A stretch of DNA of 63,755 bases, counting the filler, from Chrysochromulina tobinii (lineage: Eukaryota), in assembly GCA_001275005.1 (NCBI GenBank). It is 5 parts of 5 records of this genome, joined end to end, with 100 filler letters (N's around TTAATTAATTAA, not from the genome) between each part and the next. Parts side by side here need not be neighbours in the genome. Positions count along the whole stretch, not along the records: positions 57,855 to 63,755 come from JWZX01000213.1; 4 more parts are not named here. One strand, given 5' to 3'. The notes beneath the pieces were generated by a model. It made no database searches and had not been told where the DNA came from. It was given only the letters and a program-made list of their open reading frames with translations. The translations under genes and the position numbers were made by a program. Of the stretch, positions 38,025 through 63,755 are shown one piece after another (within the stretch, counting starts at the first letter, position 1; the number at the start of each line of letters is the position of its first letter).

Positions 38025-38124
38025 NNNNNNNNNNNNNNNNNNNNNNNNNNNNNNNNNNNNNNNNNNNNTTAATTAATTAANNNNNNNNNNNNNNNNNNNN
38101 NNNNNNNNNNNNNNNNNNNNNNNN
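38025..38124. other. Artificial contig-joining spacer
   Basis: N-run, TTAATTAATTAA, N-run. Confidence 0.99.
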
Positions 38125-38426: not shown

Positions 38427-38598
38427 GACCGCTGTGGCTAGGCGGTCTGGAGAGAGTACTTGTGCAGTGAGTATGGGCCGCTGTGGCTAGTGGTGGTCCG
38501 TTGTGAGAGAGTATCGGTGGAGTGAGCGCAGACCGCTGTGGCTAGGCGGTCTGGAGAGAGTACTTGTGCAATGAGTATGGGCCGCTGTGGCTAGTGGT
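38427..38598. repeat. 68-bp direct repeat (38427-38494 and 38531-38598, one mismatch)
   Basis: GACCGCTGTGGCTAGGCGGTCTGGAGAGAGTACTTGTGCARTGAGTATGGGCCGCTGTGGCTAGTGGT occurs twice. Confidence 0.9.
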
Positions 38599-39883: not shown

Positions 39884-39949
39884 GATGGCGCCAGCTGCGT
39901 CGGCGACGGACGTCTGGATCTCGGCCGAGGATCTGGATGTCTGTCGCAG

Positions 39950-42900
39950 GTGCAGCTGGTCGACGACGGCGCGGTTTTATCTCTCTGGTGTACCTTCATG
40001 GTATGGCTCGGCGTCTGGATCCGGATGAAGGCTCATGAAGGGGCCACGACACGTCGAGCTCTCCCTCCTTTGGAAGGCTCAATCTGCTATAACGAGCCGT
40101 CGGCTAGGCTGGCCGACGGCGCTGCGATCCGCGTGGATCGTGCACTGACTGTGACCTTGACATCGATGACATCGATGACTGTGATGCGACGGGCGCCGCC
40201 GGCTGCGATCCGCGTGGATCCAGCTGGCGGTGGCACCCGGGTGACGTCGATGACTGTGCAGCTGCGAGGGGCGCCGCCGGCTGCGATCCGCGTGGAGGCA
40301 GCTGGCGGCGACACCCGGGCTGCGATCCGCGTGGATCGCGCACTCGCAGCGCAGTCGCCGGTTCCCCTTCGGTCTGTGAGCGCTGCGCTCGCCGGCTCGA
40401 GCTCGCTGCTCGCCGGCTCACCATCTCGGCCCCGTGACTCGCGCATGACGCGCACCCGCGGAGGTGGTGAACCCGAAGAGGATGGTGTGTCCAGGCCTGC
40501 CCTGCACTCGAGCGTCCGCGTGGACCGGCGACTTCTGTCGTCGCCTGCGCTCTCGGCGACGCGTGCCCGAGAAGCGCAGGGCTCGGCGAGCGTCCTGCCT
40601 CTGTCGCCTTCTCATACTCTGTCGCGCCATGGATACATGGGCACGGAAGAGGGGCGTAGCGAGGCAGCGTCTCGGCCTCTTTCCACTCACGACGTTACCA
40701 CTGATTCTGCCCCTGCTGACACAGCGTTCGCGCGCTCCTGGTGCCGTTCTACCGAGGCGAGGGCGTGCTTCGACAGTTTCGCTTGGCCTCTGCGCTCACG
40801 CGCGGAAGTGTGCCGCCTGCTTGCCTCGCGCGTGCTGACACCCACGTGGCTGCTCCTGGGAGAGTTCAGTGGCGCCTTCTCTCGCGTCTGCGAGACGCAG
40901 CGGGGTGTGGTCGTCCTCTCGGTCGACTTGCGCGAGCCCGAGCGAGAAGGGCTCCACTTCTGCGGCTCTTTCCACGAGATTTTCGACCTCGCTGCGTGGG
41001 ACTTCGTGGCGGCATGGCCAAGCTGCACCCACACGGCCTACAGCAACGGTGACCTGCGCGTGGCCAAGGCGCTCGACGGGCGGGCGTTCTGGGGGCACGT
41101 GGGCGTGCTCTATGTGCTCCTCGCCGGCGAGGCGAAGGGACGCCTGGTCGAGCAGCCCGACTCAGATTTCCACCGCCTTTTCGCGACGCCGCGGGTACGC
41201 GTGCGGACCGAGCATTATGGGGATGCCCATGCCAAAACCATAAACCTCTATCTCGTCGGCGTCAGCCTGCCCGGACTCGCTGCTGAACATCGCACGGTGC
41301 CGCTCGCCGATCACGTGCGCCGCCCGGCTCACTGGGAATTTGCCGACGCCGAGGCGCGCGACCGCTTTCGCAGCTCTTGGGAGCATTTCCCTCTGTTCAT
41401 GAACGCCCTCGTGTTCTGCCTCTCGCTGTGCGAGGCGCCGCCTCCACCGACGCCGTTCGAGGAGGGCTTGGAGGCTCTGGCGTGTGCCTGGCACGATGCG
41501 GGCTGGCCGGTGCCGGCGGGCTACGACGCCTGCAGAGATGGCCTCCCCACCGACGCGGCCGCCCGAGAGTATCAAGCCGTGCGTGGACCGGGTGACAATC
41601 GTCGTCCCCCCAGAGTGATCCCGTTCGCCAGGAGGAGCGACCTAGCTTCGGACGGGCACACGCTGATCGCTCTGCCGCCGAGGGCCGAGGCTGGCGTCGC
41701 GGATCTGCGCCGACTCGCGTCGGCGCAGGTGGTCACGCTCGCCGAGCTTACGGCGAGCGGGGTGGCTCTCTTCTTTGTGACCTATCTACTGCAGCCCCTC
41801 GTGTTCGCGCATGTCAACGGCTTCCAGGTGCTGGGGGCGGAGCTCCCTATCACCAGCGGTCGCGCGACGCCTATGCGCCTGCTAGAGCAGTGGGCCGAGC
41901 TGGCGTTTTCGGCAGATGCCACTGCCACCACCTTCATGATTGGCCGCTACAGTCAGGACGGGCCTCGGCTGGGAGTGTGCTTGCTGCCCTTCGCGCCCGC
42001 TGCTTCGATGATCGTGCGCAATGTCGCCCAGCGGCGCCGGCGCCTTGGCCTGGGAGCGACCTTTCTTTGGTGCACCCTCGCCAGTTTGGCCGGGACTCTA
42101 CTGGCTGACCCAGTGGCGCGTGCCTTTGCCAGTGTCGAGGCAGCGGCTGGGCCGGTCACGCACATGCCTGATCTGATGCATGAGGGCGAGCTGCTCCACC
42201 CAGTCTTCCGAGTGGGCGCCACCCCGAGCGCGAGCATGGTCGGGATGCGCCCGATCTCGTACGACCCGGGGTCAGTGGGTCACGCGCTCCGCCGAGATGC
42301 CGCCCACCAGCTGCTACTTCGCCGCGAGCTCGAGGTCGGCGCGGGAGCCGACGACCCGCTGCTCAAAGGGTGGGCCGAGCGCATTCGGCCGCCGCCGCAG
42401 GAGCTGCTTGACTTGGTGCGAGTGCAACTGCCAGACATGCTCGCGCCTGATCTGCTTAGCCTGCCGTACACCCCGATCTACGTGCCGCCCGAGACGCCGT
42501 ACTTACCGCGCATGCCCGCCCAGCTGCCAGCGGTGACGCCCTTCTGTGTACGCTCTGCGATGGAGCTGCTTGAAGACGCGGCGCGCCACAGTGTCCACTC
42601 GTGGCTCTCGCGCGCGCTCGATCAGCTCCGCTGCATCGAGGAACACCCGCGAGAGCACACTGGCTGCGAGCTCCTGCGACCGCCGCCGCTTGTGCTTGGT
42701 CAGGAAGCCATGCTACCGTGGGCACGAGGGCGAGTGTGGGACCTCACGTTCGAGCGAGCCAGCTGCGCCGTGCCGCTAGACATGACGCTGCCGCTGGATT
42801 CGAACTTCGACCTGTCCCGCCTGCGCGAGCGGCTTCACGGCTACCCCGACCAGAATCTGATCTCGAACCTTTTGGAGGGTATCCGCTTCGAGGCCGACGT

Positions 42901-45136
42901 CGAGCTCCAGACGGTATTGGTGCCCCACCTCATCTCGTTGCCCATGGGCTTCGCTTCGGTACGGAATGAACTGTACCGTCTCCAGACGCTGGGATGGTAC
43001 AGGTTCTTCGACGGGCTGCCGTTCTGGCCGATCTACATCAACGGCCAGGGAGCGACGTCGCGCAAGATGGAGGACCGCTACCGGCGGACCACGGAGTGCG
43101 GAGGGCCGCGGCGCCCGACATTTGACGGCAGCGGGCTGCGCGCGCTCTCGCTCAACGAGGCCTCGAGGGTCCGGCACATGCCGATCTGGTACCAGCTTCG
43201 ATTCGACCCGCCGTGGCAGAAATACCTTCAAGAACGGGCGCTCGACGTACCTCTCGAGTGGGGTATGCCTTCGCAACGTCCGCCGGAGCTCAAGCCGACG
43301 CTCAAAGGGGTCATGCGAGACCTCTCTATCCTGCTGGCGGCGGCGCGCCACCTCGACGAGCCCCTTTACGTCTTCGGCGACGACGCCAAGGACTATTTTA
43401 ACCAGCTCGCGATAGCTTCGGAGGACTGGTGGAAACTGGGCGTCGTCTTCCTTCACGCAGAGGAAGTCGGAGCGCCGCGCTCGGCGCATGAGCGGCTCTT
43501 CTTCGTCTCCGAGCGGCGCCTGGGCTTCGGCGCACGCCCGTCGTCGAACATTGCGCAGCGGTTCAGCGAAGCGCTCCTGCACTTCCTGCGGCAAGACATG
43601 GACGCCGCCGAGGCGGGTGTACCTGTCGACGTGCGACCATCCGCCGCGTACTGGCGCGCCGCTCGCGCCTCGATCCACCGACAGGAGCCAGCAGAGCACC
43701 TAGCCCAATCTCGCCTCTACATCGCGCACATGTACACCGATGACCCCATCTTTGCAGTCGTCGGGGTGCAGCGAGCGATACGGCTGCTCAAAGCCTGGAT
43801 GCGCCTGGTCACCGAGCTGCGTATGATCATGGCCATCGAGGAGAAGCGACATTTAGGCACGTGGGTGCCCTGGCTGGGCGTTCTCCTGCTCGCCGGTTTG
43901 GGCATGGTGCTCATACCCAAAGCCAAACTACTACGCACCGTGGAGCGGGTCGACGAGCTGCTCACGAACGGCATGCCCTTCCAGGACTATCGCTCGCTCG
44001 TCGGCCTGCTTGAGCACCTGCGGTGCATCTACGGTGCTCAGCGATCGGCCATGTACGGCCTCTATGCCCCGCACGGCTCCCTCCGTGTGCGCCTCGAAGG
44101 ACCAGCCGCGCTTATCCGCCCGAACGGGTTCCAAACCGAGCAGCTCCAGCGGCACCGCAAGCTGCTCATGAGTACGGGAGGCGCGCCGGTGACGGCGGCC
44201 CTGCGACGTGGCGACGGTGCGGCGGCTCCGCCCTTTGCGGTCAAATTCGTGGTATCTGCCGACGCGGCCACCGACAGCGCACCGCCAGGCATCGGCGGTT
44301 TCTGCCACGGGCTCTATTGGTATGCCCCGATCCAGGAAGAGTGGCTACTGTACCTGCACATCACTGTGCTCGAGCTGCTCGCCACGGGGCTGGGCGCCAT
44401 CATCCTAGCGCCGTACCTACGGCACGCCCAACGCATCCGCTTGCAAAGTGACGCGCTAGCGACCCCTTTTGTGCTATCTCGCCATGGAGCGCACAGCGCA
44501 ATGCTCATGCTGGCTCACCACCGGCTGCTGCAGGACGACCGCTATGCCGCCGTAGCGGCGAACGCCGACATCCAGCACCTCGACGGCGACAGTAACGCCT
44601 TCAGCGACAGCGTGTCGCGAGGGCTCTGGCAACGCTTTCTTCTGCTCTGCCGCGCCGCGAACATACAGCCAGTGCGAGTGCAAGTGCCGCAGCATGCCCT
44701 GGAGCTCCTGCGCGGGGTGGCGGATGAGGCGCGCCTCGCCGGCGTGCAAATACGACGATCGCAGTACGTGCGCCCGAGCCCAGTATTGCCACCGGCGATG
44801 CTCATGCTCGGCCGCCGCTCGACAGCCTGCGAAGAAGCCGATGCCGTAGCGAAGATCAGCCCTCGCCTGGCGGCGGCGCTGCGCGCGGCGGTAGTGGCAC
44901 AGCCCGAGCGCACAACGCACGGTACGCCGGCGGCGCGAGCCATCTCTGCGCGGCTGGCCAGCCGTCTCCGCGGGGAAGTGGCGGCAGAGCCGCCCAAGCA
45001 ATCGACGCCGAACATGCCATCGATGGCCGCGCCCAAAGCCGCCCAGGTGCGCCCCGCGTGCACCGACCGAACGGGTCGTCGCCCCTCGCCCGCTAGCCGC
45101 AAGGCAAGGGAAGCTCTCGCTCACCACCATAGGTAA
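39950..45136 (+). CDS. Pol: cytosine-methyltransferase-like domain + reverse transcriptase + RNase H
   Basis: RT: FGDDAKDYFNQL (~43379), LGFGARPSSNIAQRFS, MYTDD (43733-43744). RNase H: VSADAATD, ITVLELLA, LQSDA, SNAFSDSVSR. MTase-like domain at 40847-41410. Confidence 0.9.
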   Translation: MQLVDDGAVLSLWCTFMVWLGVWIRMKAHEGATTRRALPPLEGSICYNEPSARLADGAAIRVDRALTVTLTSMTSMTVMRRAPPAAIRVDPAGGGTRVTSMTVQLRGAPPAAIRVEAAGGDTRAAIRVDRALAAQSPVPLRSVSAALAGSSSLLAGSPSRPRDSRMTRTRGGGEPEEDGVSRPALHSSVRVDRRLLSSPALSATRAREAQGSASVLPLSPSHTLSRHGYMGTEEGRSEAASRPLSTHDVTTDSAPADTAFARSWCRSTEARACFDSFAWPLRSRAEVCRLLASRVLTPTWLLLGEFSGAFSRVCETQRGVVVLSVDLREPEREGLHFCGSFHEIFDLAAWDFVAAWPSCTHTAYSNGDLRVAKALDGRAFWGHVGVLYVLLAGEAKGRLVEQPDSDFHRLFATPRVRVRTEHYGDAHAKTINLYLVGVSLPGLAAEHRTVPLADHVRRPAHWEFADAEARDRFRSSWEHFPLFMNALVFCLSLCEAPPPPTPFEEGLEALACAWHDAGWPVPAGYDACRDGLPTDAAAREYQAVRGPGDNRRPPRVIPFARRSDLASDGHTLIALPPRAEAGVADLRRLASAQVVTLAELTASGVALFFVTYLLQPLVFAHVNGFQVLGAELPITSGRATPMRLLEQWAELAFSADATATTFMIGRYSQDGPRLGVCLLPFAPAASMIVRNVAQRRRRLGLGATFLWCTLASLAGTLLADPVARAFASVEAAAGPVTHMPDLMHEGELLHPVFRVGATPSASMVGMRPISYDPGSVGHALRRDAAHQLLLRRELEVGAGADDPLLKGWAERIRPPPQELLDLVRVQLPDMLAPDLLSLPYTPIYVPPETPYLPRMPAQLPAVTPFCVRSAMELLEDAARHSVHSWLSRALDQLRCIEEHPREHTGCELLRPPPLVLGQEAMLPWARGRVWDLTFERASCAVPLDMTLPLDSNFDLSRLRERLHGYPDQNLISNLLEGIRFEADVELQTVLVPHLISLPMGFASVRNELYRLQTLGWYRFFDGLPFWPIYINGQGATSRKMEDRYRRTTECGGPRRPTFDGSGLRALSLNEASRVRHMPIWYQLRFDPPWQKYLQERALDVPLEWGMPSQRPPELKPTLKGVMRDLSILLAAARHLDEPLYVFGDDAKDYFNQLAIASEDWWKLGVVFLHAEEVGAPRSAHERLFFVSERRLGFGARPSSNIAQRFSEALLHFLRQDMDAAEAGVPVDVRPSAAYWRAARASIHRQEPAEHLAQSRLYIAHMYTDDPIFAVVGVQRAIRLLKAWMRLVTELRMIMAIEEKRHLGTWVPWLGVLLLAGLGMVLIPKAKLLRTVERVDELLTNGMPFQDYRSLVGLLEHLRCIYGAQRSAMYGLYAPHGSLRVRLEGPAALIRPNGFQTEQLQRHRKLLMSTGGAPVTAALRRGDGAAAPPFAVKFVVSADAATDSAPPGIGGFCHGLYWYAPIQEEWLLYLHITVLELLATGLGAIILAPYLRHAQRIRLQSDALATPFVLSRHGAHSAMLMLAHHRLLQDDRYAAVAANADIQHLDGDSNAFSDSVSRGLWQRFLLLCRAANIQPVRVQVPQHALELLRGVADEARLAGVQIRRSQYVRPSPVLPPAMLMLGRRSTACEEADAVAKISPRLAAALRAAVVAQPERTTHGTPAARAISARLASRLRGEVAAEPPKQSTPNMPSMAAPKAAQVRPACTDRTGRRPSPASRKAREALAHHHR

Positions 45137-45275
45137 GCTGCGCCTCCTTGCTCTCCCCCGACCGGTCACCGCGGCGCCTTCGCCGGCTCGCGACGCGCTA
45201 AGAGCCGCCGCGGGCACGCAAGCGCACAGGCGTGCCGCTCTTTTCGCCAAGGCCGGCTTTGGTGCCAACCACAAC

Positions 45276-46802
45276 GTGGACCAGCTCGCAGAACTTCTCA
45301 AGCATGCAAGTGACCTGCCAGACTTCGGAGTCTCGCACGGCACCAGACGGAAAAACGAAGCGGCGTGGGCGCACTGGGAACAGTTTTCAGAACTAGTCGG
45401 CTTCGACCCGCTGCTCTCCGCAGAGCAAGCGCGCAACTACCCCAGTGAAGTTGGCACTTTGCTTGCCACCTTCTTGCTCTATATCTATCCCAAGATGAAG
45501 GGCAAGCGCGGCCGGCAATGGGCCTCTCCGCGCAGCGCGTTCGCCTATGTCTTGTCGATCATCCGAATCTTCCGAGAGTGGAAGATCATTCTGCCGCCCG
45601 CAAAAGTCGTGCAAGGCGAGCTGCACGGTCTGCTACGCGCTTTCGTCGGTGTGTACGGAGCGCACGCCCTGATGCCCCAGAGACGCGAACCCTTCCGCTT
45701 CTCCATGGTGCAAGACCTGCTCAGGCACCCGAAGGACCGGCTTGGCGCACGCAGCTACGATCCAGCCAGTACCATCGGGTGGGCCTTTCGAGGCATGCTT
45801 GCGCTCGGCTGGCGCACCGGCCATCGATTGGCCGAATTCGTCGCCCACCCGTCGGGCGAAGTGTGCTACGTAACGCGCCACGACGTGACGTACCTGATCG
45901 CAGGTGTGCCCGTCGCAGACCCGACGCCGGCGCAGCTCGCCCTGCTGCGTCCCGGCGACACGATCCTCATAGCGCCACCGCGTTCAAAGACGGACCAGTT
46001 TGGAGAAATCCACTCCCCCTTCCCATCGGCGATCGCCTACTCCGCCGATACCAACAGCGCCGGCTACATCATCCAGCAAATCGAACTCCTGCGACCTGTG
46101 CACGGACGCAGCCGAGAGAGCACGCCGCTGTTTGCCGATGAGTCGGGCCTGCCCTACACGCACAGCGTCATGGACACGCTCCTGCACGCCGCCCTCGTGC
46201 GCCTGTACGGCGAGCAGGTAGCCTCATGCTACTCGTGGCATTCGCTTCGCTCTGGCCTCGCCACGGCGCTCAAGGCGGCAGGTTGCGCCGACGACGTCAT
46301 ACAGATGATATGCCGCTGGGCAAACCCGGAGTCGCTCAAGGTTTATGCCCGCCACGGCACATCGCTGCACATAAACTGGGTAGACCGCGCCGAAAAAGCC
46401 GTGATCGACGCGATCCTATCCTCCAGTGTGCCAAAGGTGTGCAACAGCGAAGGCAACATCGCCCTGCAGCACCACTTCGGAGGCACCGTCCCAACGCGGG
46501 CCAGACACGTTCTCGACAACGCAGACCGGGATGCAGGCGATGCAACCGCCCCACCGCCGGCGCCCCCCGATGCGTCCCCGCTCACCCACACCAACGCCAC
46601 AGGGCGTCGCGTGCGAGTGCCCGCGGCATGCTGGCCGACCTACCCCTGCACCGAACACGCAGGGCTCGGTTGGACGGCGCACATCATCTCGGTGCACCAA
46701 CCAACCAGCGCCGCAACCCTACGCTTCGCCGAAGCAACGGATGACCGCGGCCTCCCTTTCGCAGATGTCCAGCTCCACCTAGGAACCCTCGTACCTTTCT
46801 AA
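45276..46802 (+). CDS. Tyrosine recombinase ORF3 (frame open from 44895)
   Basis: Catalytic R (TGHRLAE), K (RSKTDQ), HxxR (HSLR, 46239), RW and Y (LKVY, 46344). Confidence 0.92.
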   Translation: MDQLAELLKHASDLPDFGVSHGTRRKNEAAWAHWEQFSELVGFDPLLSAEQARNYPSEVGTLLATFLLYIYPKMKGKRGRQWASPRSAFAYVLSIIRIFREWKIILPPAKVVQGELHGLLRAFVGVYGAHALMPQRREPFRFSMVQDLLRHPKDRLGARSYDPASTIGWAFRGMLALGWRTGHRLAEFVAHPSGEVCYVTRHDVTYLIAGVPVADPTPAQLALLRPGDTILIAPPRSKTDQFGEIHSPFPSAIAYSADTNSAGYIIQQIELLRPVHGRSRESTPLFADESGLPYTHSVMDTLLHAALVRLYGEQVASCYSWHSLRSGLATALKAAGCADDVIQMICRWANPESLKVYARHGTSLHINWVDRAEKAVIDAILSSSVPKVCNSEGNIALQHHFGGTVPTRARHVLDNADRDAGDATAPPPAPPDASPLTHTNATGRRVRVPAACWPTYPCTEHAGLGWTAHIISVHQPTSAATLRFAEATDDRGLPFADVQLHLGTLVPF

Positions 46803-49108: not shown

Positions 49109-49208
49109 NNNNNNNNNNNNNNNNNNNNNNNNNNNNNNNNNNNNNNNNNNNNTTAATTAATTAANNNNNNNNNNNNNNNNNNNNNNNNNNNNNNNNNNNN
49201 NNNNNNNN
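49109..49208. other. Artificial contig-joining spacer
   Basis: N-run, TTAATTAATTAA, N-run. Confidence 0.99.
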
Positions 49209-53551: not shown

Positions 53552-56500
53552 ATGCCGACTGGGCGCGTGGGCCTGCCACAGGGCCTCCTTGGAGAGCCCC
53601 GTGCAAGACGGGTCGCGACGGACCCAGATAACAGCCCAGGCGAGCACGAGGACGACGACGACGACGACTGCGACGATTGTTGGGCTTCAAATTGCCCTGC
53701 CGACAAAGCCGCGCGGAAGCAGCAGCGGCCGACAATCTCACCCGCGCGCATCGATGCGCGCAAGCGTCAGCAGCTTCGGCCATATCCAGAAAACGCGCCT
53801 CTGCCTATAAAGGATGCAAGACTCGTGCGTGCGCGGTTCTGTCCCGACGCCCCCGACGAAGACTTCGTCACCGCGCCTCCTTCCTGCGCCGGTGCATCCT
53901 CCACCGCCGCTGCCGCCGTCGTCGCATCCAGCAAGCGCCAGCGTCTCACGGCGCCCACTGTCGCTGCTTCCACGCCATCGACCACCCTCGCCGCTCTCGC
54001 CGCGTCATCCACCGGCCTCGCCGCGCCCGCCGCCATCGCCGCGCCTTCCGCCGCGATCGCCACCATCGACATCGCCGCGATCGCTAGTGTCGCTGGTGCT
54101 GCCGATTCCGCTGGTGTTGCTGGTCGTTGCCGGTGCCGCTGATGCCGCCGCCGCCCCCGCCGATGCCGCCGATGATGCCGCCGACGACCGTGCACTCGTT
54201 TGGCGCTTGTCGCCAAAACCCCTCGCGGCCATCCGCAAAGTCGGGCTGAACGGCGAGCGGCGCGCCGCCGCGGCGCTCCTTGACGCACTCGTCATGAACT
54301 TTCAGAAGTGCGTCGGCCCGATCAAACTGAATGGCGCCCGCTCGTCGTGCGGCTGCCTGAAGGCAGAGGATGCTCCGCCGTGCCACGTGACGCTCTATGC
54401 TTCCTTTCAGGAGATCCTCGAGCCAGCGGCCTTCAAGTGGGCGTTCCCGTCCACCACCGGCGGCGTGGCTGGCGGCGCGACGCACGTCGCAGCGCTCCTG
54501 ACCGCGGCTGAAGAAGTCGTGACGGAGAAGAGCGTCAAGCTCAGCAAGGAGCGGAAGACGTACCCCCGCTTCTTGCTGCTGGGCTGGCAGCGACGGTCGA
54601 CCCCTCTGCCATCGCCCCAGCCGCTTGCCCCGCTGCCGTTGTCCATATTTGCCTCTCCATGTGCTGCCGCCACCGCCGCACACGTTGACGACGACGACGA
54701 CGACAGCGCGAGCGACCGCCGCGCACGTGAGGCGGCAGAGGCGGCAAGGCGCAGCGTGTGGTCAGAGGCGCGCGAGCAGAGGCTTCGGGCGGCGCTCCGC
54801 ACGGTGCCGTCGCATCGCGCCGGACGTCGTGTGCCTGAGGACCAGTGGCACTCCATCGCCCTCGCCCTCGCGGCCGCCGAGCCGCCGACCTCGTGCTGGG
54901 CGCCCACTGGCCTTGCCGTCGTAGAGCACTATAAGCGAAGCCTGCTGCCGCGCCTGCTGTCAAAGCTGCCCGCGCCGCCCGCCGCCGCTGCTGGGCCCCG
55001 CCCGAGCATCTGGTCAGCTCAGGGCGACGGGGAGCTCCAAGCCGCCGTGCACTTACTCCACGAGGTGCACGGTCTCGGCCGCGCGAGCATCGAGTTCTGG
55101 CGGCTCGTCGAGGAGCGCTGCCCGTCGGCGCCGGCTCTGGTCGGTACGCATTTCGCCGACAATTCGTACGCGCGCCGCCACGCGCCGGCCTTCTCCACAC
55201 CACGCGGCGCCTACGTGGGGCGGGTGCCGTGGGTGCCGCCTGCTGACGTCTCGACGGCGCTGCCGGCCGTTTCGGCTGCCGTCGACGCGGTCGCTGCGCT
55301 CGGCACGCGCGCCGAGCGCACGTGCGCGCTGTACGGGATGCCCGAGCGAGCCGCTGCCACCGGCGGTGCGGTCGCGGCCGCTGCTGCGGCTGTCGCGTGG
55401 GCTGCAGCGGACGCCGGGTGCGAGCGCGAGGCGATGGCGGTCTGGATTGGCTGCGTGAAGCTGCCGCGCGATCGCGGTGTGCTGCAGCGGGCGCGTGCGG
55501 CCGTCACGGCGCGGCGGCTCGACGCGCCCGAGGGCGCCGCCCTCGTGCTTCTCGGGCTCGGCGGCTGTGTGGGCAGTGGCCGCACCTCCGCCGCCGATCC
55601 CCTGCTCGCCGCGCTCGTCGCCGCCTTCGGCGTGCCCGCGTCGAGCATCTGGGCGTGGCGCCGCGCCCACAGCCTCGGGCAGAGCGCGGCGCTGGCCCGG
55701 CTCGCCGCCGACTCGGACGCGTGCGGGCCCGCCGCGCTCGCGCGCGAACTGGGCCTCGGCACCGCCGGCCTCGCACGCCTCGCCGCCCTCCTCGTCCAGC
55801 ACAGCACGCTCGAGCACGCACGGCATATTCTGGGCGATGCAGGCGCGGCGGACGAGGCCGCGATCGCGATCGCGGCGCTGCTTGGCGCCGCGGAGGAGGT
55901 CGGTGCGCAGGAGGGTGCGGAGGGGGAGGGAGCGGAGGAGGAGGTGGAGGAGGAGGAGGAGGAGGAGGCGGGGCTGCCGGCCGTGGTTGACGAGCAGCTT
56001 GCCACCGACTTGTTTGGCAGCCTGCTCCATTGGCTGGCCGGGGCGCGTGTCGCGGACGCTGTGGCCGAGCTCACCGAGTGGGGGCGGCGTGCGCTTCCGG
56101 CGCCTGCGGCCATACGCCGCTGCTTGGCGCCAAAGGGCGGGCACGTGCCCAGCGCGATGGACGCCTTGGCGCGGCAGATGCGCGACGACGTGCACGAGGC
56201 GCACGAGGCGCGGCTCGTGCGCACGGCCAGCGTCCTCGAGCTGCGCAGCGCGCTCGAGAACGAGCGCAAGCCGCTGCGCGCGTCCGTCGCCAACGTGCTC
56301 CGTCAGCTGAGGCTGCTGACGGAGCACGCTGACGATGCCAATGGAGGGCTTCATGGCGCGCTCACACGCACCAGCCAGCTCTTCGATCTGGCCGCGTCTC
56401 CTGCTCGCGGGGTGGGCGCGGTGGTGAGAGCCGAGGCGCTCCGTCTGGCACAGCGCTGCTTCACGGCGTCGGCGGCAGCGCTGGCTGCGGCACCCACAGC

Positions 56501-57500
56501 CGAGGCGGTGGCGACGGCTGGCTACCTTGGCAACATCCTCGAGCGGCTGCGCGTGGGCGGCCGCGGCGAGCCGCTGCGCAAGCAGGCGCGCGACGTGCTG
56601 TTCCGCCTCCTATCGGCGCTCGCGACGGCCGAGCTGGCAACGTTGTCGTCGCCCCGGCCCGCTAGTGGCGAGGCCCTCGCCCTGAGCCGCATGCCGCTCG
56701 TCGACGCGGCCGCCGCCGCCGCCCTCGCCCGTCTCGGCGCCAACGTGCCGCGCTTTGGCTACTTTGTGGAGGAGGACGAGGCGCTGCACGCGCTCGGCCG
56801 CCAGCGGCGCGAGCTCAAGCCGCAGCAGCTCGAGGCGCTCGCGGCCTGGCGTCGCGGCGCCGATTTTATCGGCCAGCTGCCCTGCGGCTTTGGCAAGACG
56901 CTGCTCTTTCAGCTGCCTGCGCTGCTGGCGCCGGGCGGCGGCGTGGCCATCTCGCCGCTGAGCGCGCTCATGCGCACGCAGGTGGAGGCCCTCCCCCCGG
57001 GCGCGGCCGCGGCCGCCGCCAAGCACGGCCTCGCGCACGCGTGGCTGCTGTACGCGGCGGGCGCGGTACAGCTCCTGTACACGGCGCCCGAGAGCGCCGC
57101 CAAGCATGCGGCGCTGCTGTGCTGGGCGTGCGCCAAGCGGGGCTGCGCGTGCGTCGCCGTCGACGAAGCGCACTGTGCGCTGCCCGAGCCCGTGGGCAAC
57201 CTGCTCTTCCGGCCCGACTATGGCGAGCTGCGCACCGTGCTGGCACGCCTCCGCGGCGCCGCACCGCTGATGCCGCTGATGGCGCTCACAGCCACCGCGA
57301 CGCGCGAGGAGAGGACGCGCGAGCTGCCCGAGGCGCTCGGGCTGCGCCCCGACCACGCAATCGTGCACGCGAGCGTCGTGCGCCGCGACCTCGTCATGCG
57401 CACGCTCGTCGCCCCCAAGCTCGAGCAGATTGCCGCGCTCCTGCGCATCGACCCGACCAGAGCGGCCGTGCGGGCGGCGTGGCGCTGCCTCGCGGAGACA
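53552..57500 (+). pseudogene. Large degenerate ORF ending in a RecQ-like DEAH helicase ATPase domain (frameshift ~54120; no helicase C-domain seen)
   Basis: LKPQQLEAL, LPCGFGKTLLFQLPAL, ISPLSALM, LLYTAPE, VAVDEAHC, FRPDY and MALTATAT at ~56810-57400, then GGDG low complexity. Confidence 0.65.
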
Positions 57501-57754
57501 AGGGGCTGGCGGCTGCTCGGCGGCGGCGGCGAGCTCGGCGATGGCGGCGAGCTCGGCGGCGGCGATGGCGATGGCGATGGCGATGGCGATGGCGAGCTCG
57601 GCGGCGGCGATGGCGTTGGCGACGGCGATGGCGATGGCGATGGCAACATCGGTGGCGACGGCGGCGGCATCGGCGGCATCGGCGGCATCGGCGGCGACGG
57701 CCGCCGCGGCCGCCTCGGCGACAGCGATGGCGATGGCGAAAGCAGTCTCCGCCG

Positions 57755-57854
57755 NNNNNNNNNNNNNNNNNNNNNNNNNNNNNNNNNNNNNNNNNNNNTT
57801 AATTAATTAANNNNNNNNNNNNNNNNNNNNNNNNNNNNNNNNNNNNNNNNNNNN
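57755..57854. other. Artificial contig-joining spacer
   Basis: N-run, TTAATTAATTAA, N-run. Confidence 0.99.
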
Positions 57855-58501
57855 GAGGGCGGCGGCGGCGAGGGTGTGATGATGGTAGCGGAGGTGATGG
57901 TGACGGTGGGCAATGCGGCGGCGAGGGCGGCGGTGGTGGCGGCCTTGTATAACGTACTGTCGGCAGACGCGCCCGTTGGCGCGCCTCCCGAAGGAAACGC
58001 AAAAGAAGTCACTCGTCGTCGCCGTCGCGTGACGACGACGGTGTCGAGGAACGACAGTGTCAAGGAACGACGATATCATGGCGACCGGCAGCTTGCCCGC
58101 CGCGTTATCGCTGCCTGCCGCCATCAGCGGCGATTGTGCGCGCTGGACGCCGCCTTGTGCCACTGCGCTCCTTGACCTTCGCTGTACACTTGGCGCGCTC
58201 GTTGCGCCGCGCCTCCGTCATCGCCTTGCTCTTCTTCTTCTTCTTCTGAATCGGCCGCCTTGCGCCACGCGTCTTGCAGGCGCTTTGAGGCCACTTGCTG
58301 TACGCGCGCTCTATGCGTGCGAACGAGTAGACCTCGGGACCAACGGATGCGCAGAGGCAGTGGAGCGGTTGCCATTCGATCGCCGCATGCTGATGCCCGT
58401 CGAGCCGTCTTCGATCACGAATGCTGCTGCTGCTGCTGTGAATCATAAACATTGGCTGTGAAACACGAGCACGGCGGCGCCTCCGCCAACTTGGCGCCCT
58501 T

Positions 58502-58996
58502 AAAATCGTCTCACAAACGCAATTCGAAGATACGGTGCCCAAAATCGTCTCACAAACGAAAGTTAAACATCGAACGAAATCGCCTCAAACAAACGAAAGT
58601 CGAACGACCGGCGCCTAAAATCGTCTCACAAACGCAAGTCGAACATCGAACAGTATCGTCTCGCGAGAACGAAAGTCGAAGGACCGGCGACCAAAATCGT
58701 CTCACGAACGCAAGTCGAACTTACACAGCGCCCAAAATCGTCTCACAAACGAAAGTTAAACATCGTAATCAGGCGGAGTCCAACATCCGGCACCCAAAAT
58801 AGTCTCCGACATGAGAAGTAAAAGAAGTCAATCGTCTCACAAACGCAACTCGAACGACCGGGGACCGAAATCGTCTCACAAACGCAACTTACATCGTCTC
58901 ACAAACGCAACCGAAGAACTATCGTCTCACAACCGAAACCATGAGTTCCATCGTCTCACAAATAAAAGTCCATGAACAAATCGTCTCACAAACGAA
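58502..58996 (+). repeat. Array of ~14 copies of (AAA)ATCGTCTCACAAACG with variable spacers
   Basis: Copies near 58502, 58541, 58577, 58617, 58655, 58693, 58734, 58796, 58830, 58868, 58893, 58921, 58950 and 58978; some are degenerate. Confidence 0.9.
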
Positions 58997-59622
58997 GTAT
59001 TCTCTTTTGGTAAACTTGGTCGCGTGAAAGGAATGCGGTCATGAACAACGGTAAAAAGACACCGCGGGGAGCCAGGACACACACGGGACACACGGGCGCA
59101 CACGGGCACACCGGTACACTTGCGGCCTGGAGGCGAAACCCGGACCCTTATAAGCTTAAAGCCAAAAGCTAGCAGAAGCACGTGTGGAGGGCGTCTAGCG
59201 GCCTTAGCTTAGCGCATGTTTGGAATTGGATTGGTTCTCAGTGGACACGTCGGGTTGTTCGGTCCAGAGAGCAGAGTGTTTTCGATGCACAACGTACGAT
59301 GATCAAGAAATTACCTCTGTAACGGTCACGCCGGCGAGCGCGAGCGCGCACGGCCCACACACTCCCCGGCACAATCATGCGACGCGTGTCCTCGCCTAAC
59401 CTCATGTATCGGCCCCGTACGCTCCCCCGCGCGATCCCCATTTTCCGGAGATAAACCTCTGCCCTGACCCTCGGAGCTCAGACATGCCCTCGAACGTAGC
59501 ACCTCATTCGAGCACCTCCTCACGACCGGACCAGATCTCCACATTCACACTCACATGGTCGTCCCCGAACGTCTCTCGTCTGAGGGCTTCTTGCGCCTTC
59601 CTCAGAGTACGCATGCATCATT

Positions 59623-60534
59623 CTAGGCATGGTGCTGGCTGCTGCCGGCCTGGAAAGTGAGCAGGGCAGCGCGCGCAGAGCCGATCAACCCCTCGATCAA
59701 CCCCACGTTGGCCACTCGCAGATCTTTGTCGTGGCACTTCTCAGTCTGCCCAGAGCCAAGTGTTTCAATCTCCACCGTATAAAGTGCCATCTCTGCATCG
59801 TACTCCTTCACATAGGCGAGAGTCTCCGCTCCGTTGCTGCGCTTCATGAACACGCTGCTGCCGATGGCGTAGCGCAGCGCAAGGGCGGGGACGGGATGGG
59901 GGCCCGCCGATGCAACCGCCCTTTCCATGAATGGGACATGTTTATTGATCTCTTCCAAGATCTCATCCAGAGCTTCGGGCACCGTGAGCAACGTGCCGGC
60001 ATCTGGGATGTCATTGATCTTGCCGAGGTGCTCCTGCACTTTGGCGATCATCACCTCGGAATCCTGGTCCGTGAGCTTCTTCCACTGGTCTTGCTTGTCG
60101 GGCAGATTCTCCTCAAGGACGATGGGTATCACGGGAATCTTCTTATCGATGGCACAGCTGAGCTCCTTCAAACAGGGCTCGGACTCGTAAAAGGCCTTAG
60201 TCTTCAGGACGATCAGCACCTTGGCCTTTGCATGTCGCCCCTTGAGACGCAGCATGAACACTTCCCAGTCGACGCCGGCGGGGACGTGCAGCCCACTGAA
60301 GCATTGCAGGCCGCACTGATGGAGGACCTCAAGAAACCCCGCCGCATAAAACATGCCTGGCCCGGCGCTCCATCCAACATGGGCGGTCCATACGGCTCTC
60401 GTTATCCATACTGATGAGTCCCGACGTCGACCCGTTGCGTGTGACACCACCACTTTGGGATAGTATTCGTCTGGGCGGGAAGAGTGTTCCGTGTCTGATT
60501 TCTGATTGCCCCGCGGACTGGTTTGAATGCTCAC
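59623..60534 (-). CDS. Second TIR-like domain plus small beta-barrel-like domain (probably the 3' part of the upstream receptor gene)
   Basis: Near-copy of the upstream TIR (VVVSHA...AKVLIVLKTKAFYESEPCLKELSCA...IPVIPIV). It is in the same frame as the upstream ORF and has no ATG before the domain. Confidence 0.75.
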   Translation of the reverse strand: MSIQTSPRGNQKSDTEHSSRPDEYYPKVVVSHATGRRRDSSVWITRAVWTAHVGWSAGPGMFYAAGFLEVLHQCGLQCFSGLHVPAGVDWEVFMLRLKGRHAKAKVLIVLKTKAFYESEPCLKELSCAIDKKIPVIPIVLEENLPDKQDQWKKLTDQDSEVMIAKVQEHLGKINDIPDAGTLLTVPEALDEILEEINKHVPFMERAVASAGPHPVPALALRYAIGSSVFMKRSNGAETLAYVKEYDAEMALYTVEIETLGSGQTEKCHDKDLRVANVGLIEGLIGSARAALLTFQAGSSQHHA

Positions 60535-60540
60535 GCAGGC

Positions 60541-63500
60541 TCACGCGTCCAGCTCGGCCTCAAACTCGGCAAAGAAGTTGGCGATATCTGCCTCCTGCAG
60601 CATCGAGCCGACAAGGTCCTCACCCAGATGCGGCATCACGACTGGGGCCCCTATGCCAGGCTCGCTCCGAGAATTCCAGCCCTCCGGCAGGGTCGCCGAT
60701 CTATAGGTTGGAGCGATGGAGGTCGCCAAGGTATGGGTTGATGCGCAGTGGGTCGCCGAGGTATCGGTGGGTGCGCAGTAGGTCGCCGAGATCAAGGTTG
60801 GCGCCGCGGTTGCGCCCGCCTGTCCAATAGCATCAGCTCGACGCAGCTGCGCCGAGGGGCGCGATGCGCGCACACTGCCCTTTATGCGCTGGAGCTCGTC
60901 TACGATAGAAGGGAACGTAGGCCGTTGAACAGGATCGGTCTGAAGGCACCGGGTGGCAAGCGCGAGGATGCCAGGTGGGCAGCCGGCCGCATTGCGCAGC
61001 TGGTCGAGCGGGGTGGCTTGACCTCTGACAATGATCGCCATGAGCGCATGCGCAGTGTCCTTCGGAGGCAGTTGCACATGGCTGTACGGTATGGACCGCG
61101 TCCCCATATGTGTGAGCAGGCATCCGAAGCTCCACACGTCGGTGGGCTTGGCTTTTGCGCCCGAGGTGAGTGCAATCGCCTCGGGAGCCATGTAGGGCGG
61201 CGTGCCCGCGGGCCCCTCGGCCTGCCCGGCATACTTGGTGAGTGCGGTGCCAAAGTCAGCCACCTTGGCGACCCAGTGCTCCGTGAGTAACACGTTGCCA
61301 GGCTTCAGGTCGCGATGGACCACGTCCATCGCATGTAGGTACGTCATGCCCTTGGCCACATCGAAGGCGATGAGGACGAGGGATGCCTCCCACGTGGCGA
61401 GCTGATCGCGCTGCCGGTGGTGATGCAGCACATCGAGCAACGACGAAGGCATGAGCTCCATCAGAATGCCCGTCTTCCCGTTGTTGCCGTCGTGTGCAAT
61501 GCCCATGGTGAGGAGCACATTGGGGTGGTGCAGGCGCATCGTGAGCTCAAACTCGTTGAGGAGCTCTTGTAGCGCCGCCGGCGTGGTCGCTGCCCGTAGG
61601 CTCTTGATGGCGCATGGGGTCGAGTTCCACACGGTGGCGGCACGCACCTCGCCAAAGCTGCCCGCTCCGAGACTCTCTTTGAGTGCCAGGTCTTTCCAGC
61701 TCACCACCACGTGCATCGAGCTTCCTACGATGCTCGACATCTCAGTGCCGCTTCCCTTCGGTGGTGGTGAGCGCGGTGGCTTTGAGCGCAATGGCTGTGA
61801 GCGCTTCGAGGAGATCGGGATCATGCGGCTCCAACCGCCCCGTTTCGCGGCAAAGTTTTGTGTGGCCAACGTCGTGAGCTCCTGGGCCTTAGTTGTGACA
61901 TGCTTATTGATCTCCTCGAGGATCTCGTCCAGAGTAATGGGCACGGTGCGCAACGTGCCGGGGCTTGGGATGTCATTGATCTTGCCGAGGTGCTCCTGCA
62001 CTTTGGCGATCATCACCTCGGAATCCTGGTCCGTGAGCTTCGACCACTGCTGTTTGGGGCCGGGCAGATTCTCCTCGAGGACAATGGGTATCACGGGAAT
62101 CTTCTGATCGATGGCACAGCTGAGCTCCTTCAGACAAGGCGCGGACTCGTAGAACGACTTGGTCTTGAGGACGATCAGCACCTTGGCCTTTGCATGTCGC
62201 CCCTTGAGACGCAGCATGAACACCTTCCAGTCGGTCCCTGGGGGGACGTGCAGCCCGCTGAAGCATTGCACGCCGCACTGATCGAGGAAACTGATGAAAC
62301 CCGCCGCATAATACATGCCTGGCCCGGCGCCTTGGCAATCCTGCTCACGGCGACCCGTCGCATACGAGATCACCGCTTCAGGATAGTATCGGTCGAAAGC
62401 CGTGCCCCTTGGCACGAGCGAGCGTACATAGCTCTTCCTTTTCTGCGCCATCTCCTCTGTGATGATGGGTGGCACCATGAAGGCCTCAGCACAGAACTTG
62501 GTCAACATGTCGTCCCTCTCAGTCTCTGCTTTCTGAGCTTTGGCCCTCCTGGCCGCTTTCGTTACCTGTCCGCCCTTGGCTCGGCGCATGAAGGCCAGGG
62601 CAAGGATAACTGCGATGATCACACCGACGACGACGCCGACGATGATGCCGATGGAGCCGCTCGTCTCGACTGCTCCGGCCGACATTGGTGACATGGGTGG
62701 AGGAGGCGACGGTGATGGCGGTGGCGGTGGTGGGACGTCTGCGATGGTGGGTGGCGTCACCGCGAGCACGGCAATGGAGACGCCGGTGATGTTCGCGAGC
62801 ATGGCGGTTGCGCTGCTCGGGCTGCTCGTCGCGCTGGCCATTGTCGACTGCACCGAGGCCGCCGTCGCCGTGGTCGTCTGGATGCTCACGACGACGATGA
62901 CGCTGCCTGGCGAAATGGTCAACTCCACCTCCGATAGGCCGACGCCGGCGCGAGCCGCGACTGCTCTCTGCATCTGGGCCTGCACGCTCAGGGTGAACGA
63001 GGAGACGTCGCCGTCGAGCTCGAGGGTGAAACCGACGACGCTCATCGCCGGCGGCGATGGCGGCGGCGAGGGCAGGGGCGAGGGCGGCGGCGGTGGTGAG
63101 GGCGAGGGTGGCGGCGGCGAGGGCGGCGGCGGCGGCGGGAGCGAGGTCGGAGGCGAGGGCGGCGGGGGCGAGGGCGGAGGCGGTGGTGAGGGCGAGGGCG
63201 GAGGCGGCGAGGGCGGAGGTGGTGGTGAGGGCGAGGGCGGAGGCGGCGATGGCGGCGGCGGTGGTGAGGGTGAGGGCGGAGACGGTGAGGGAGGCAGCGG
63301 CGACCCGTTCATGACAAACAGCTGCGTGGCCGACAGGTACTCAAAGTGTTCATCAAGCGCGGGGTTCGCTAGCGTTGAGAGGCAGGTCTTATAGAGACCG
63401 GTGGTGGAAAGCTGGACCGAGATGGCGCCGTTGCTGATCGTGCCGCCCAACTGCGTGGCACGCGCGAAAGCTGCGCCTGCGCAGGTCCGGGAGCCGGCAG

Positions 63501-63755
63501 GAAGGAAGACGAGGTGGTTACCGTTGCTGGTGATCCCGCTCACTGTGATGGTGGTCATTGTGCTGTGCACGATCATGTGGGGCGTCAGGGTCACGCTCGG
63601 AGGGGCGGGTGGGGGCGAGGGCGGCGGGGGGGAGGGCGGGGGGGCGACGGGTGGCGGCGGCGGAGGGAGGGGGTGGCGAGTGGGAGGCGACGAAGGAGGA
63701 GGAGGCGAGGGCGGCGGTGAGTGGGGGAGCGGAGACGGTGGCGGTGGCGAGGGTG
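60541..63755 (-). CDS. Receptor-like protein: Pro-rich ectodomain, TM, TIR-like domain, TKL kinase (5'-partial)
   Basis: Frame is open to the window end. TM GIIVGVVVGVIIAVILALAF; TIR AVISYA...FYESAPCLKEL...IPVIPIV; kinase LGAGSFGEV, CAIK, HRDLKPGN, VADFG, GTPPYMAPE, DVWSFG. Confidence 0.88.
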   Translation of the reverse strand, partial: PSPPPPSPLPHSPPPSPPPPSSPPTRHPLPPPPPPVAPPPSPPPPSPPPAPPSVTLTPHMIVHSTMTTITVSGITSNGNHLVFLPAGSRTCAGAAFARATQLGGTISNGAISVQLSTTGLYKTCLSTLANPALDEHFEYLSATQLFVMNGSPLPPSPSPPSPSPPPPPSPPPPSPSPPPPPSPPPPSPSPPPPPSPPPPSPPTSLPPPPPPSPPPPSPSPPPPPSPLPSPPPSPPAMSVVGFTLELDGDVSSFTLSVQAQMQRAVAARAGVGLSEVELTISPGSVIVVVSIQTTTATAASVQSTMASATSSPSSATAMLANITGVSIAVLAVTPPTIADVPPPPPPSPSPPPPMSPMSAGAVETSGSIGIIVGVVVGVIIAVILALAFMRRAKGGQVTKAARRAKAQKAETERDDMLTKFCAEAFMVPPIITEEMAQKRKSYVRSLVPRGTAFDRYYPEAVISYATGRREQDCQGAGPGMYYAAGFISFLDQCGVQCFSGLHVPPGTDWKVFMLRLKGRHAKAKVLIVLKTKSFYESAPCLKELSCAIDQKIPVIPIVLEENLPGPKQQWSKLTDQDSEVMIAKVQEHLGKINDIPSPGTLRTVPITLDEILEEINKHVTTKAQELTTLATQNFAAKRGGWSRMIPISSKRSQPLRSKPPRSPPPKGSGTEMSSIVGSSMHVVVSWKDLALKESLGAGSFGEVRAATVWNSTPCAIKSLRAATTPAALQELLNEFELTMRLHHPNVLLTMGIAHDGNNGKTGILMELMPSSLLDVLHHHRQRDQLATWEASLVLIAFDVAKGMTYLHAMDVVHRDLKPGNVLLTEHWVAKVADFGTALTKYAGQAEGPAGTPPYMAPEAIALTSGAKAKPTDVWSFGCLLTHMGTRSIPYSHVQLPPKDTAHALMAIIVRGQATPLDQLRNAAGCPPGILALATRCLQTDPVQRPTFPSIVDELQRIKGSVRASRPSAQLRRADAIGQAGATAAPTLISATYCAPTDTSATHCASTHTLATSIAPTYRSATLPEGWNSRSEPGIGAPVVMPHLGEDLVGSMLQEADIANFFAEFEAELDA

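What the first reader, a model, noticed from the sequence alone, without database searches (positions are those of the whole stretch)
60541..63755. Single-pass receptor with TIR and kinase in one cytoplasmic tail: candidate algal innate-immune receptor
Seen: an ectodomain of Pro-rich stalks and beta-rich modules, a TM helix, a TIR-like domain (~62390-61900) keeping the Glu of the S-x-x-C-x-x-E-L motif, and an intact TKL kinase. Established: animal TLRs (TM-TIR) recruit separate IRAK kinases, plant RLKs lack TIR, and the equivalent Glu is catalytic in SARM1, plant and bacterial TIR NADases. Inference: a fused TLR/RLK-like receptor coupling ligand-induced clustering to NAD+ cleavage and phosphorylation, perhaps in antiviral or antibacterial cell death. 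I know of no description of this architecture in haptophytes.
Basis: partly seen in the sequence, partly recalled or inferred. Interest (0 to 1): 0.82.

Follow-up and report, generated by a model that had tools for sequence, protein, structure and literature searches.

The report
Algal receptor joins TIR and kinase
A freshwater alga has a cell-surface receptor whose inner tail carries both a TIR domain (an immune module predicted to cut the cofactor NAD+) and an intact protein kinase; it is one of a family of mix-and-match receptors and likely serves in defence, much like the untested 'Kinase TLRs' of choanoflagellates but built in reverse order.

Summary
The 5'-open frame 60541-63753 (-) encodes Pro-rich stalks, a SEA-like module, one TM helix, a TIR fold (Z 15.5 to SARM1 TIR) with Glu543, and an intact Raf-like kinase. 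Four other assemblies carry the TM-TIR-kinase join at 99-100% identity, so it is not an artefact. RNA contigs support transcription. Named relatives point to Chrysochromulina. A near-identical contig extends the ectodomain with a lectin-like module and an ALK/LTK glycine-rich domain.

(1) The TIR is a removable cassette of about 220 aa in a young receptor-kinase family that also has TM-kinase, TM-TIR-SH3-like and TM-TIR-kinase-TIR-SH3-like members. (2) A decayed second TIR lies just past the stop codon. (3) The TIR has Pro where cyclising TIRs have Trp, which predicts plain NAD+ hydrolysis at most.

The concept is not new. TM-kinase-TIR 'Kinase TLRs' are described in choanoflagellates, and virus-induced ectodomain-TM-TIR genes in Gephyrocapsa huxleyi. 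I found no paper on the TIR-before-kinase order or on any haptophyte TIR-kinase receptor. NADase activity and an immune role are untested. Verdict: new variant of a known kind, interest 0.55.

The parts
60541..63753 (-). Receptor ORF, 1070 aa, 5'-open. Near-identical L004 adds at least 535 aa upstream, with a galactose-binding/F5-8-like lectin module and an ALK/LTK glycine-rich domain; still no start codon
   Evidence: PF12810 E 1e-28; PF22633 E 0.0016 in L004 and 2e-7 in paralogue L023
63595..63755 (-). Pro/Ser-rich stalk (low complexity)
   Evidence: sequence; tandem repeats
63304..63594 (-). Module of about 97 aa between the stalks; no Pfam family; unnamed eukaryotic look-alikes, weak TIG/IPT lead
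   Evidence: no family; score 0.95 to unnamed clusters, 0.88 to a cluster 41% TIG; low recognition value, so weak
63046..63303 (-). Second Pro/Ser-rich stalk
62734..63045 (-). Membrane-proximal SEA-like ferredoxin-fold module; P-G-S-V-I-V in the beta2-beta3 turn (62893-62910) resembles the MUC1 self-cleavage motif
   Evidence: model pLDDT 87; top matches EpCAM, Trop2, dystroglycan, SorCS2, phogrin, IA-2 at Z 7-8.6, middling; Ser in 75 of 75 rows, preceded by Gly in 27 and Ala in 48; some proteins are counted twice
62590..62652 (-). Single transmembrane helix, aa 368-388
   Evidence: hydropathy up to 3.3, coordinates
61843..62508 (-). TIR cassette of about 220 aa, absent from TM-kinase paralogues that keep both flanks
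   Evidence: L018 and L024 read from the ...AERDE flank almost directly into the ...SKRSQ flank; RNA joint 61755-62617 in two runs
61900..62385 (-). TIR domain; Glu543 at 62125-62127; Pro539 in place of the WxxxE Trp; clade-specific conserved loop after the first strand
60883..61704 (-). Intact Raf/CTR1-like (TKL) kinase with Ser/Thr-type motifs
   Evidence: best single-domain PDB sequence hit CTR1, E 3.6e-35, then RAF kinases
60691..60801 (-). 30-bp tandem repeat (3.7 copies) encoding a Thr/Ser/Tyr-rich tail; paralogues switch C-terminal modules just after it
60472..60670 (-). Segment that carries the stop codon, shared with paralogue L023-L025 (82% over 393 columns); it replaces the in-frame linker that joins kinase tail to second TIR in L006, L007 and P0004
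59935..60471 (-). Second TIR, same frame, after the stop; keeps the Glu but has lost the near-invariant Asp by a 12-bp deletion; the first Met lies inside the domain; likely a stranded remnant
   Evidence: TIR_2 E 1.7e-5; alignment; Asp in 103 of 104
59641..59886 (-). Small SH3/Tudor-like module ending the remnant frame (stop at 59623)
   Evidence: weak PF22923 hit, E 0.0012; the SH3/Tudor label is my reading, not a tool result; recurs as a C-terminal module in paralogues

Best explanation
This is a single-pass surface receptor kinase of a Chrysochromulina-type alga with an inserted TIR cassette, and it likely acts in defence: binding of a multivalent foreign surface would cluster the receptors, so that the TIR domains would assemble and cut NAD+ while the adjacent kinases would phosphorylate each other. 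Shown: architecture, TIR fold, conserved Glu, intact kinase, purifying selection, real join, transcription of this gene or near-identical copies, and a modular family. Inferred: the ligand (glycans or surface proteins, from the lectin-like and glycine-rich modules), activation by clustering, NADase activity and a defence role. The predicted product is nicotinamide plus linear ADP-ribose rather than cyclic isomers, because the WxxxE Trp is Pro. The Thr/Ser/Tyr repeat tail is a candidate phosphorylation site. The SEA-like module may self-cleave at Gly-Ser so that the ectodomain can be shed or pulled off. The fusion likely arose recently, when a TIR cassette entered a SEA-TM-kinase family, and has since been shuffled among paralogues by recombination.
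For: TIR fold, with enzymatic TIRs (SARM1, SPARTA, plant NLRs) at the top of the list, though scaffold TIRs such as MyD88 score within about 1.5 Z. Glu in 101 of 104 domains. dN/dS from the window's TIR to 9 paralogous TIRs 0.20-0.54, and from its kinase to 19 paralogous kinases 0.24-0.61; the pairs share branches and are not independent. The same TIR clade is fused in other proteins to GBP and IIGP GTPases, PARP, WGR, COR, LRR, ankyrin, TPR, SAM and C-type lectin domains. Ectodomains differ among paralogues: LamG (L016), F5/8-like (L023), LRR (P0180). Some copies are broken, such as the stop in the kinase of L005a/L031 and the frameshift in L023/L025; this pattern is typical of immune receptor families (general knowledge). 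TIR-bearing kinases are not one clade: 6 against 14 rows, AU p 1.4e-6, 5 label changes. A recombination test gave 15 of 2000 permutations as low as observed. Of 103 kinase-bearing proteins held, 9 carry this TIR, all in the close family. In G. huxleyi, TM-TIR genes rise early in virus infection, and algal viruses, including a Chrysochromulina virus, encode TIRs (PMC12489294).
Against: No activity, ligand or infection data exist for this protein. An aromatic residue is present at the WxxxE Trp position in only 2 of 104 domains, and its loss lowers NADase activity in SARM1. The G. huxleyi virus-induced TIRs listed in Table S9 lack this clade's motifs, so their behaviour need not carry over. Many close paralogues lack the TIR, so the family works without it. 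No RNA contig bridges the TM and the TIR fully, and the RNA is environmental, from alleles or paralogues. No signal peptide was seen, because the 5' end is missing. Chrysochromulina is a particle-feeding alga (recalled), so surface receptors could serve feeding or adhesion.
Confidence: 0.45

Rival explanations
1. The TIR is a non-enzymatic clustering or docking module, as in animal TLRs and MyD88. It helps the kinase dimerise or recruits cytosolic TIR proteins of the same clade, and the kinase is the only output.
For: The WxxxE Trp is missing. Scaffold TIRs match nearly as well: MyD88 Z 14.1, Hydra TRR-2 Z 14.3. Cytosolic ankyrin-TIR, LRR-TIR and MIB/HERC2-TIR proteins with about 60% identical TIRs exist, one labelled Chrysochromulina.
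Against: The Glu and a pocket-like set of residues (Tyr464, Arg469, Asp472, Trp509, Cys540) are conserved across domains down to about 31% identity, which fits catalysis better than a variable docking surface.
Confidence: 0.22
2. The receptor is enzymatically as described but serves prey capture, adhesion, mating or mechanosensing rather than defence. A self-cleaving SEA-like module on a stiff stalk would act as a force sensor.
For: SEA-like fold with an invariant Ser in the cleavage turn. SEA domains self-cleave and need force to separate (PMC10556640, PMC9564314). Lectin-like tips suit particle binding. Polyadenylated environmental RNA holds these sequences with no infection known.
Against: 48 of 75 rows have Ala, not Gly, before the Ser, and the fold scores are middling. 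The TIR clade's other partners are mostly conflict or immunity domains.
Confidence: 0.2
3. The window copy is a by-product of recombination in an expanding family, truncated and drifting towards a pseudogene.
For: Its 3' end is a patch shared with another paralogue, and it strands a decaying TIR. Other copies are broken.
Against: At least 1605 codons are open in L004, all catalytic motifs are intact, and dN/dS is below 1. TM-TIR-kinase recurs in four further sequence groups with TIRs 80-96% identical.
Confidence: 0.08
4. The real product is longer: splicing or read-through joins the kinase tail to the second TIR and the SH3-like module.
For: The second TIR is in the same frame, and a GT...AG pair that would keep the frame can be read in the sequence. 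Fused paralogues exist (L006, L007, P0004), and an RNA loose end at 60671 reads into the fused linker.
Against: RNA contigs from two runs of one study cross the stop unspliced (60296-60643 and 60339-60714), and no joint with splice-type ends is listed. The second TIR has lost its conserved Asp. Contigs drop rare forms, so a minor isoform is not excluded.
Confidence: 0.05

Closest known systems
Choanoflagellate 'Kinase TLRs' and 'Kinase TIRs' (Richter et al. 2018, PMC6040629; passages read)
   Same: TM, kinase and TIR in one chain; proposed there to bypass recruited kinases; uncharacterised.
   Different: The order there is LRR-TM-kinase-TIR, reported as unique to choanoflagellates in that data set. 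Here it is TM-TIR-kinase, with a lectin-like, glycine-rich and SEA-like ectodomain and no LRR, in a haptophyte. The origin is likely independent (inferred from the cassette structure; not tested with a joint tree).
Gephyrocapsa huxleyi TM-TIR proteins such as cogent1101_i1 (Shaler et al. 2025, PMC12489294; sections 20 and 24 and the Table S9 rows with TIR_2 read)
   Same: Haptophyte; ectodomain-TM-TIR with the conserved Glu; receptor-like role proposed; induced during virus infection.
   Different: No kinase in the 12 Table S9 rows seen; a different TIR clade (0 hits for four clade motifs in the supplement).
SARM1, plant NLR and SPARTA TIR NADases
   Same: Fold (Z about 14-15.5) and a Glu in the helix after the third strand.
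   Different: These are not single-pass receptors, and they are activated by other sensor domains (general knowledge). SARM1 and flax L6 have the WxxxE Trp; this clade has Pro and a long conserved loop after the first strand.
Plant receptor-like kinases and the Raf-like kinase CTR1; ALK/LTK receptor kinases
   Same: Ectodomain-TM-TKL kinase layout; kinase closest to CTR1/RAF among solved structures; ALK/LTK-type glycine-rich domain outside.
   Different: They have no TIR. The kinase here has Ser/Thr-type motifs, not ALK's Tyr type. The best glycine-rich matches were mostly large non-receptor proteins, those with names bacterial.
MUC1-type membrane mucins
   Same: Extended stalk, SEA-like module next to the TM, G-S-V motif.
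   Different: A Pro-rich rather than mucin-repeat stalk, and an enzymatic tail; cleavage is untested.

Membership tests
TIR domain superfamily | Flavodoxin-like TIR fold | tested here: met
   Atlas score 0.94 to TIR_2 clusters
TIR domain superfamily | Pfam TIR_2 above the curated cut-off | tested here: not met
   23.7 bits against 28; many relatives pass
Enzymatic TIR NADases | Conserved Glu in the helix after the third strand | tested here: met
   Glu543 lies in helix 89-100 of the model, after strand 76-81; 101 of 104. A residue-level superposition on SARM1 E642 was not printed by any tool.
Enzymatic TIR NADases | NAD+ cleavage upon self-association | not testable with these tools
cADPR-cyclising TIRs | Aromatic residue four positions before the Glu (WxxxE) | tested here: not met
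   Pro539; aromatic in 2 of 104; criterion from bioRxiv 10.1101/2022.05.07.491051
Choanoflagellate Kinase TLR | TM, kinase and TIR in one chain | tested here: met
Choanoflagellate Kinase TLR | Order TM-kinase-TIR | tested here: not met
   TIR precedes the kinase; paralogues L006/L007 have a TIR on both sides
Choanoflagellate Kinase TLR / animal TLR | LRR ectodomain | tested here: inconclusive
   no LRR in the ectodomain held in L004, but its N-terminus is missing
TKL (Raf-like) Ser/Thr kinase | Catalytic motifs intact; closest to Raf/CTR1 | tested here: met
Type I single-pass receptor | One TM helix with basic residues on the C-terminal side | tested here: met
   (hydropathy only)
Type I single-pass receptor | N-terminal signal peptide | not testable with these tools
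   the gene is 5'-open in the window and in L001-L004; no genome is held
Self-cleaving SEA domain | Ferredoxin-like SEA fold next to the membrane | tested here: inconclusive
   beta-alpha-beta-beta-alpha-beta topology; best Z 8.6, with mostly surface-receptor hits at the top. That these hits are SEA-fold domains is partly recalled.
Self-cleaving SEA domain | G-S-V motif in the beta2-beta3 turn | tested here: met
   cleavage itself is untested

The most novel reading that the evidence does not exclude
Chrysochromulina has independently evolved a combinatorial immune-receptor family. Interchangeable ectodomains (lectin, LamG, glycine-rich, LRR) sit on a self-cleaving SEA stalk, and interchangeable outputs (kinase, TIR NADase, both, or tandem TIR) are swapped by recombination near short repeats. 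The window gene would be a receptor that couples pattern recognition directly to both NAD+ destruction and phosphorylation, using a TIR clade with a non-canonical active site (Pro for Trp, conserved long loop) that may make a new nucleotide signal.
Probability: 0.25. Interest if true: 0.82.

Novelty: new variant of a known kind. Interest (0 to 1): 0.55.

Why it matters
How microalgae sense viruses and bacteria is largely unknown. The 2025 G. huxleyi study says TIR-based antiviral systems had not been described in microalgae. This gene gives a concrete, testable candidate. Its natural paralogues with and without the TIR or the kinase act as built-in controls for what each output adds. If it is an immune receptor, the TLR-plus-IRAK shortcut proposed for choanoflagellates arose at least twice, in opposite order. 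The TIR clade (342 cluster representatives at E 0.001 or better) has no solved relative by sequence, and its active site is unusual.

Tried and rejected
Assembly artefact: rejected.

Bacterial, archaeal or viral origin of this TIR: no close relative in viral contigs, GenBank phages or prokaryote genomes. These searches reach close relatives only. Structure-level matches to TIRs of algal viruses were weak.

Residue-level alignment to solved TIRs by sequence failed: no TIR hit with the domain, the profile or two relatives.

Intron inside the TM-TIR-kinase stretch: none needed, and none of the RNA joints has splice-type ends. RNA cover is thin at 62450-62571; this is not taken as evidence.

N-terminus and signal peptide: not recovered. 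The ectodomain search gave only distant glycine-rich proteins, and no genome is held for this window.

TIR self-association with NAD could not be modelled, because the complex predictor was unavailable. A wide structural search and an Atlas search for the SEA-like module did not run. Cluster member names could not be looked up, so the taxonomic range of the TIR clade is open.

Earlier scan findings: none by sequence or by words.

Literature searches that found no TM-TIR-kinase or haptophyte TIR-kinase paper: (listings seen; open-access library only). PMC10463195, on protist transmembrane kinases, has no mention of TIR or haptophytes in its main text. PMC2939053, PMC9503650 and a Myrtaceae preprint gave nothing on this architecture in the passages read. 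I vaguely recall receptor-kinase-TIR fusions in bryophytes but could not confirm this. Supplements of Richter et al. were not read.
Full report
Observation. The minus-strand frame 63753-60541 is open for 1070 codons and runs off the window. It holds one TM helix (aa 368-388), a TIR_2 match below Pfam's cut-off (E 7e-5) and a kinase (E 4.7e-44). An AF2 model of the TIR region from a 56-sequence alignment has pLDDT 95. All listed Foldseek PDB hits are TIR-bearing entries, and VIA gives Z 15.5 to SARM1 TIR over 129 residues. The kinase has all catalytic motifs and is closest to CTR1 and RAF among solved structures.

Is the join real? A scan of metagenome contigs returned 58 loci. L001-L003 are identical to the window over the 2160 bases from TM to stop, and L004 is 99.0% identical. 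L001-L003 may be the same strain, so they are independent assemblies rather than independent organisms. RNA contigs of 4 runs from 3 studies lie over most of the gene at 90% likeness or more. In the control, the nine bins of 57860-59317 downstream were empty in 9 of 9 for X14, 8 of 9 for X15 and 5 of 9 for X11, while DNA run X1 covered 9 of 9. RNA contigs bridge the TIR end to the linker and the linker to the kinase start with 0-2 differences; none fully bridges TM to TIR. These are environmental reads of alleles or close paralogues.

Lineage and ectodomain. The named relatives closest to the kinase are Chrysochromulina tobinii proteins at 89-90% identity over 68% of the domain, a haptophyte. 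One TIR relative at 60% is also labelled Chrysochromulina. L004 extends the frame to at least 1605 aa. It adds a galactose-binding/F5-8-like module (weak here, E 0.0016; 2e-7 in paralogue L023) and an ALK/LTK glycine-rich domain (E 1e-28). The module next to the membrane folds as a ferredoxin-like domain whose best matches are surface-receptor domains (EpCAM, Trop2, dystroglycan, SorCS2, IA-2; Z 7-8.6, middling). It has P-G-S-V-I-V in the turn between strands 2 and 3, like the MUC1 self-cleavage motif (PMC9564314 passages), and the Ser is invariant in 75 rows. No signal peptide could be seen.

A modular family. The 58 loci fall into 29 groups at 97% identity. Mapping modules onto them shows: TM-TIR-kinase (the window group, L005, L020-22, L027-28; L008 partial); TM-TIR-kinase-TIR-SH3-like (L006-07, also P0004); TM-kinase (L010-13, L018-19, L023-25); TM-kinase-SH3-like (L014, L016, L017, L026); and TM-TIR-SH3-like without kinase (L043, L047-49). 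The remaining loci are too short or lack a TIR upstream. In L018 and L024 the sequences flanking the TIR on both sides are nearly adjacent, so the TIR is a clean cassette of about 220 aa. On a kinase tree of 20 rows (18 labelled by architecture; L015 and L042 unlabelled because their contigs start too close), the TIR label needs 5 changes, and monophyly of the 6 TIR-bearing rows is rejected (AU p 1.4e-6). A neighbour-incompatibility test indicates recombination (15 of 2000 permutations), so the tree cannot order the events. Of 103 kinase proteins held, 9 carry this TIR (one is the window's own), all in the close family; none of the kinases under 50% identity does. Of 165 TIR-clade proteins, only those 9 have a kinase. 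An insertion of the TIR into a SEA-TM-kinase lineage, followed by shuffling, is the simplest inference.

The stranded second TIR. Right after the stop, in the same frame, lies a second TIR (88% DNA identity to the first over 439 columns) and an SH3/Tudor-like module. In L006, L007 and P0004 these are fused to the kinase tail. In the window a segment of about 200 bases, shared with L023-L025, replaces the linker and brings the stop. The window's second TIR has lost a near-invariant Asp, and RNA contigs from one study cross the stop unspliced. It is most likely a remnant.

The TIR active site. Among 104 full-length domains of this clade, Glu543 is kept in 101, Arg469 and Asp472 in 103 each, and Trp570 and Pro596 in all. 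The residue four before the Glu is Pro in 72 and aromatic in 2. Cyclising TIRs need an aromatic residue there, and SARM1 W638A has lower activity (bioRxiv 10.1101/2022.05.07.491051 passages). So linear NAD+ hydrolysis, or unusual chemistry, is predicted rather than cADPR isomers. dN/dS is below 1 for both domains in all pairs tested. The clade is fused elsewhere to GBP, IIGP, PARP, WGR, COR, LRR, ankyrin and TPR domains; 66 of the proteins from the 150 best representative hits were scanned, plus those.

Mechanism. I commit to a defence receptor activated by clustering, with NAD+ hydrolysis by the TIR and trans-phosphorylation by the kinase (0.45 for the whole chain). Rivals are a scaffold-only TIR (0.22), a feeding, adhesion or force-sensing role (0.2), a decaying recombinant (0.08) and a longer spliced product (0.05). 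Architecture, fold, motifs, selection, join and family structure are shown. Ligand, clustering, catalysis, SEA cleavage and immunity are inferred.

Comparison with what is known. Richter et al. 2018 (PMC6040629, passages) named LRR-TM-kinase-TIR 'Kinase TLRs', reported them as unique to choanoflagellates in their data set, and left them uncharacterised. Shaler et al. 2025 (PMC12489294; two sections, passages and Table S9 rows) describe virus-induced ectodomain-TM-TIR genes in G. huxleyi, without a kinase in the rows seen and from another TIR clade. Eight searches found no TM-TIR-kinase paper and no haptophyte TIR-kinase paper; subscription journals are mostly not covered. The protein would work like a Kinase TLR but is not a member of that family, because the domain order differs and no LRR was seen.

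Verdict. The finding is real and intact, and a new variant of a known kind. Interest 0.55: a specialist in TIR biology or algal immunity would want it, above all for the mix-and-match family and the non-canonical TIR site, but the idea has precedent and the function is untested.

Noticed in passing
window 38546-46802 (+): Three consecutive long ORFs (445, 1750 and 635 aa; the last two overlap), the last with a tyrosine-recombinase hit (PF00589, E 2e-5). It looks like a DIRS-type retrotransposon; the middle ORF had no Pfam hit, so the reverse-transcriptase reading is by eye.
   Followed up: partly
window 58502-58996: AT-richer tandem array with a recurring core of about 16 bases at periods of 29-76 bases, downstream of the receptor; no RNA cover in the runs laid.
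   Followed up: partly
window 53811-57752 (+): Long ORF ending in a DEAD/DEAH helicase domain (E 3e-12), RecQ-like by eye, cut by an assembly gap.
   Followed up: partly
window 5658-8798 (+): Kinase plus RCC1 repeats, NEK8/9-like by recall; ordinary.
   Followed up: partly
window 25163-34252 (-): 3029-aa ORF with long Ala/Glu/Lys-rich coiled-coil-type repeats.
   Followed up: no
window 23065-24000 (-): Another Pro-rich stalk plus a SEA-like module and hydrophobic segment, read by eye next to an assembly gap; possibly a related surface protein.
   Followed up: no
P0073, P0084, P0143, P0072, P0085, P0108: The same TIR clade is fused to GBP, IIGP GTPase plus RING, PARP, WGR, COR plus FYVE, and LRR domains: a set of candidate protist immunity proteins of unknown taxon.
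   Followed up: partly
L033:2-11140 and P0180: Very long paralogue (over 3700 aa) with several hydrophobic segments and the same kinase; the segment spacing matches a C. tobinii LRR-bearing protein.
   Followed up: partly
window 23957-24056, 38025-38124, 49109-49208, 57755-57854: Four assembly gaps of the same form: two runs of 44 N around a 12-base spacer.
   Followed up: no
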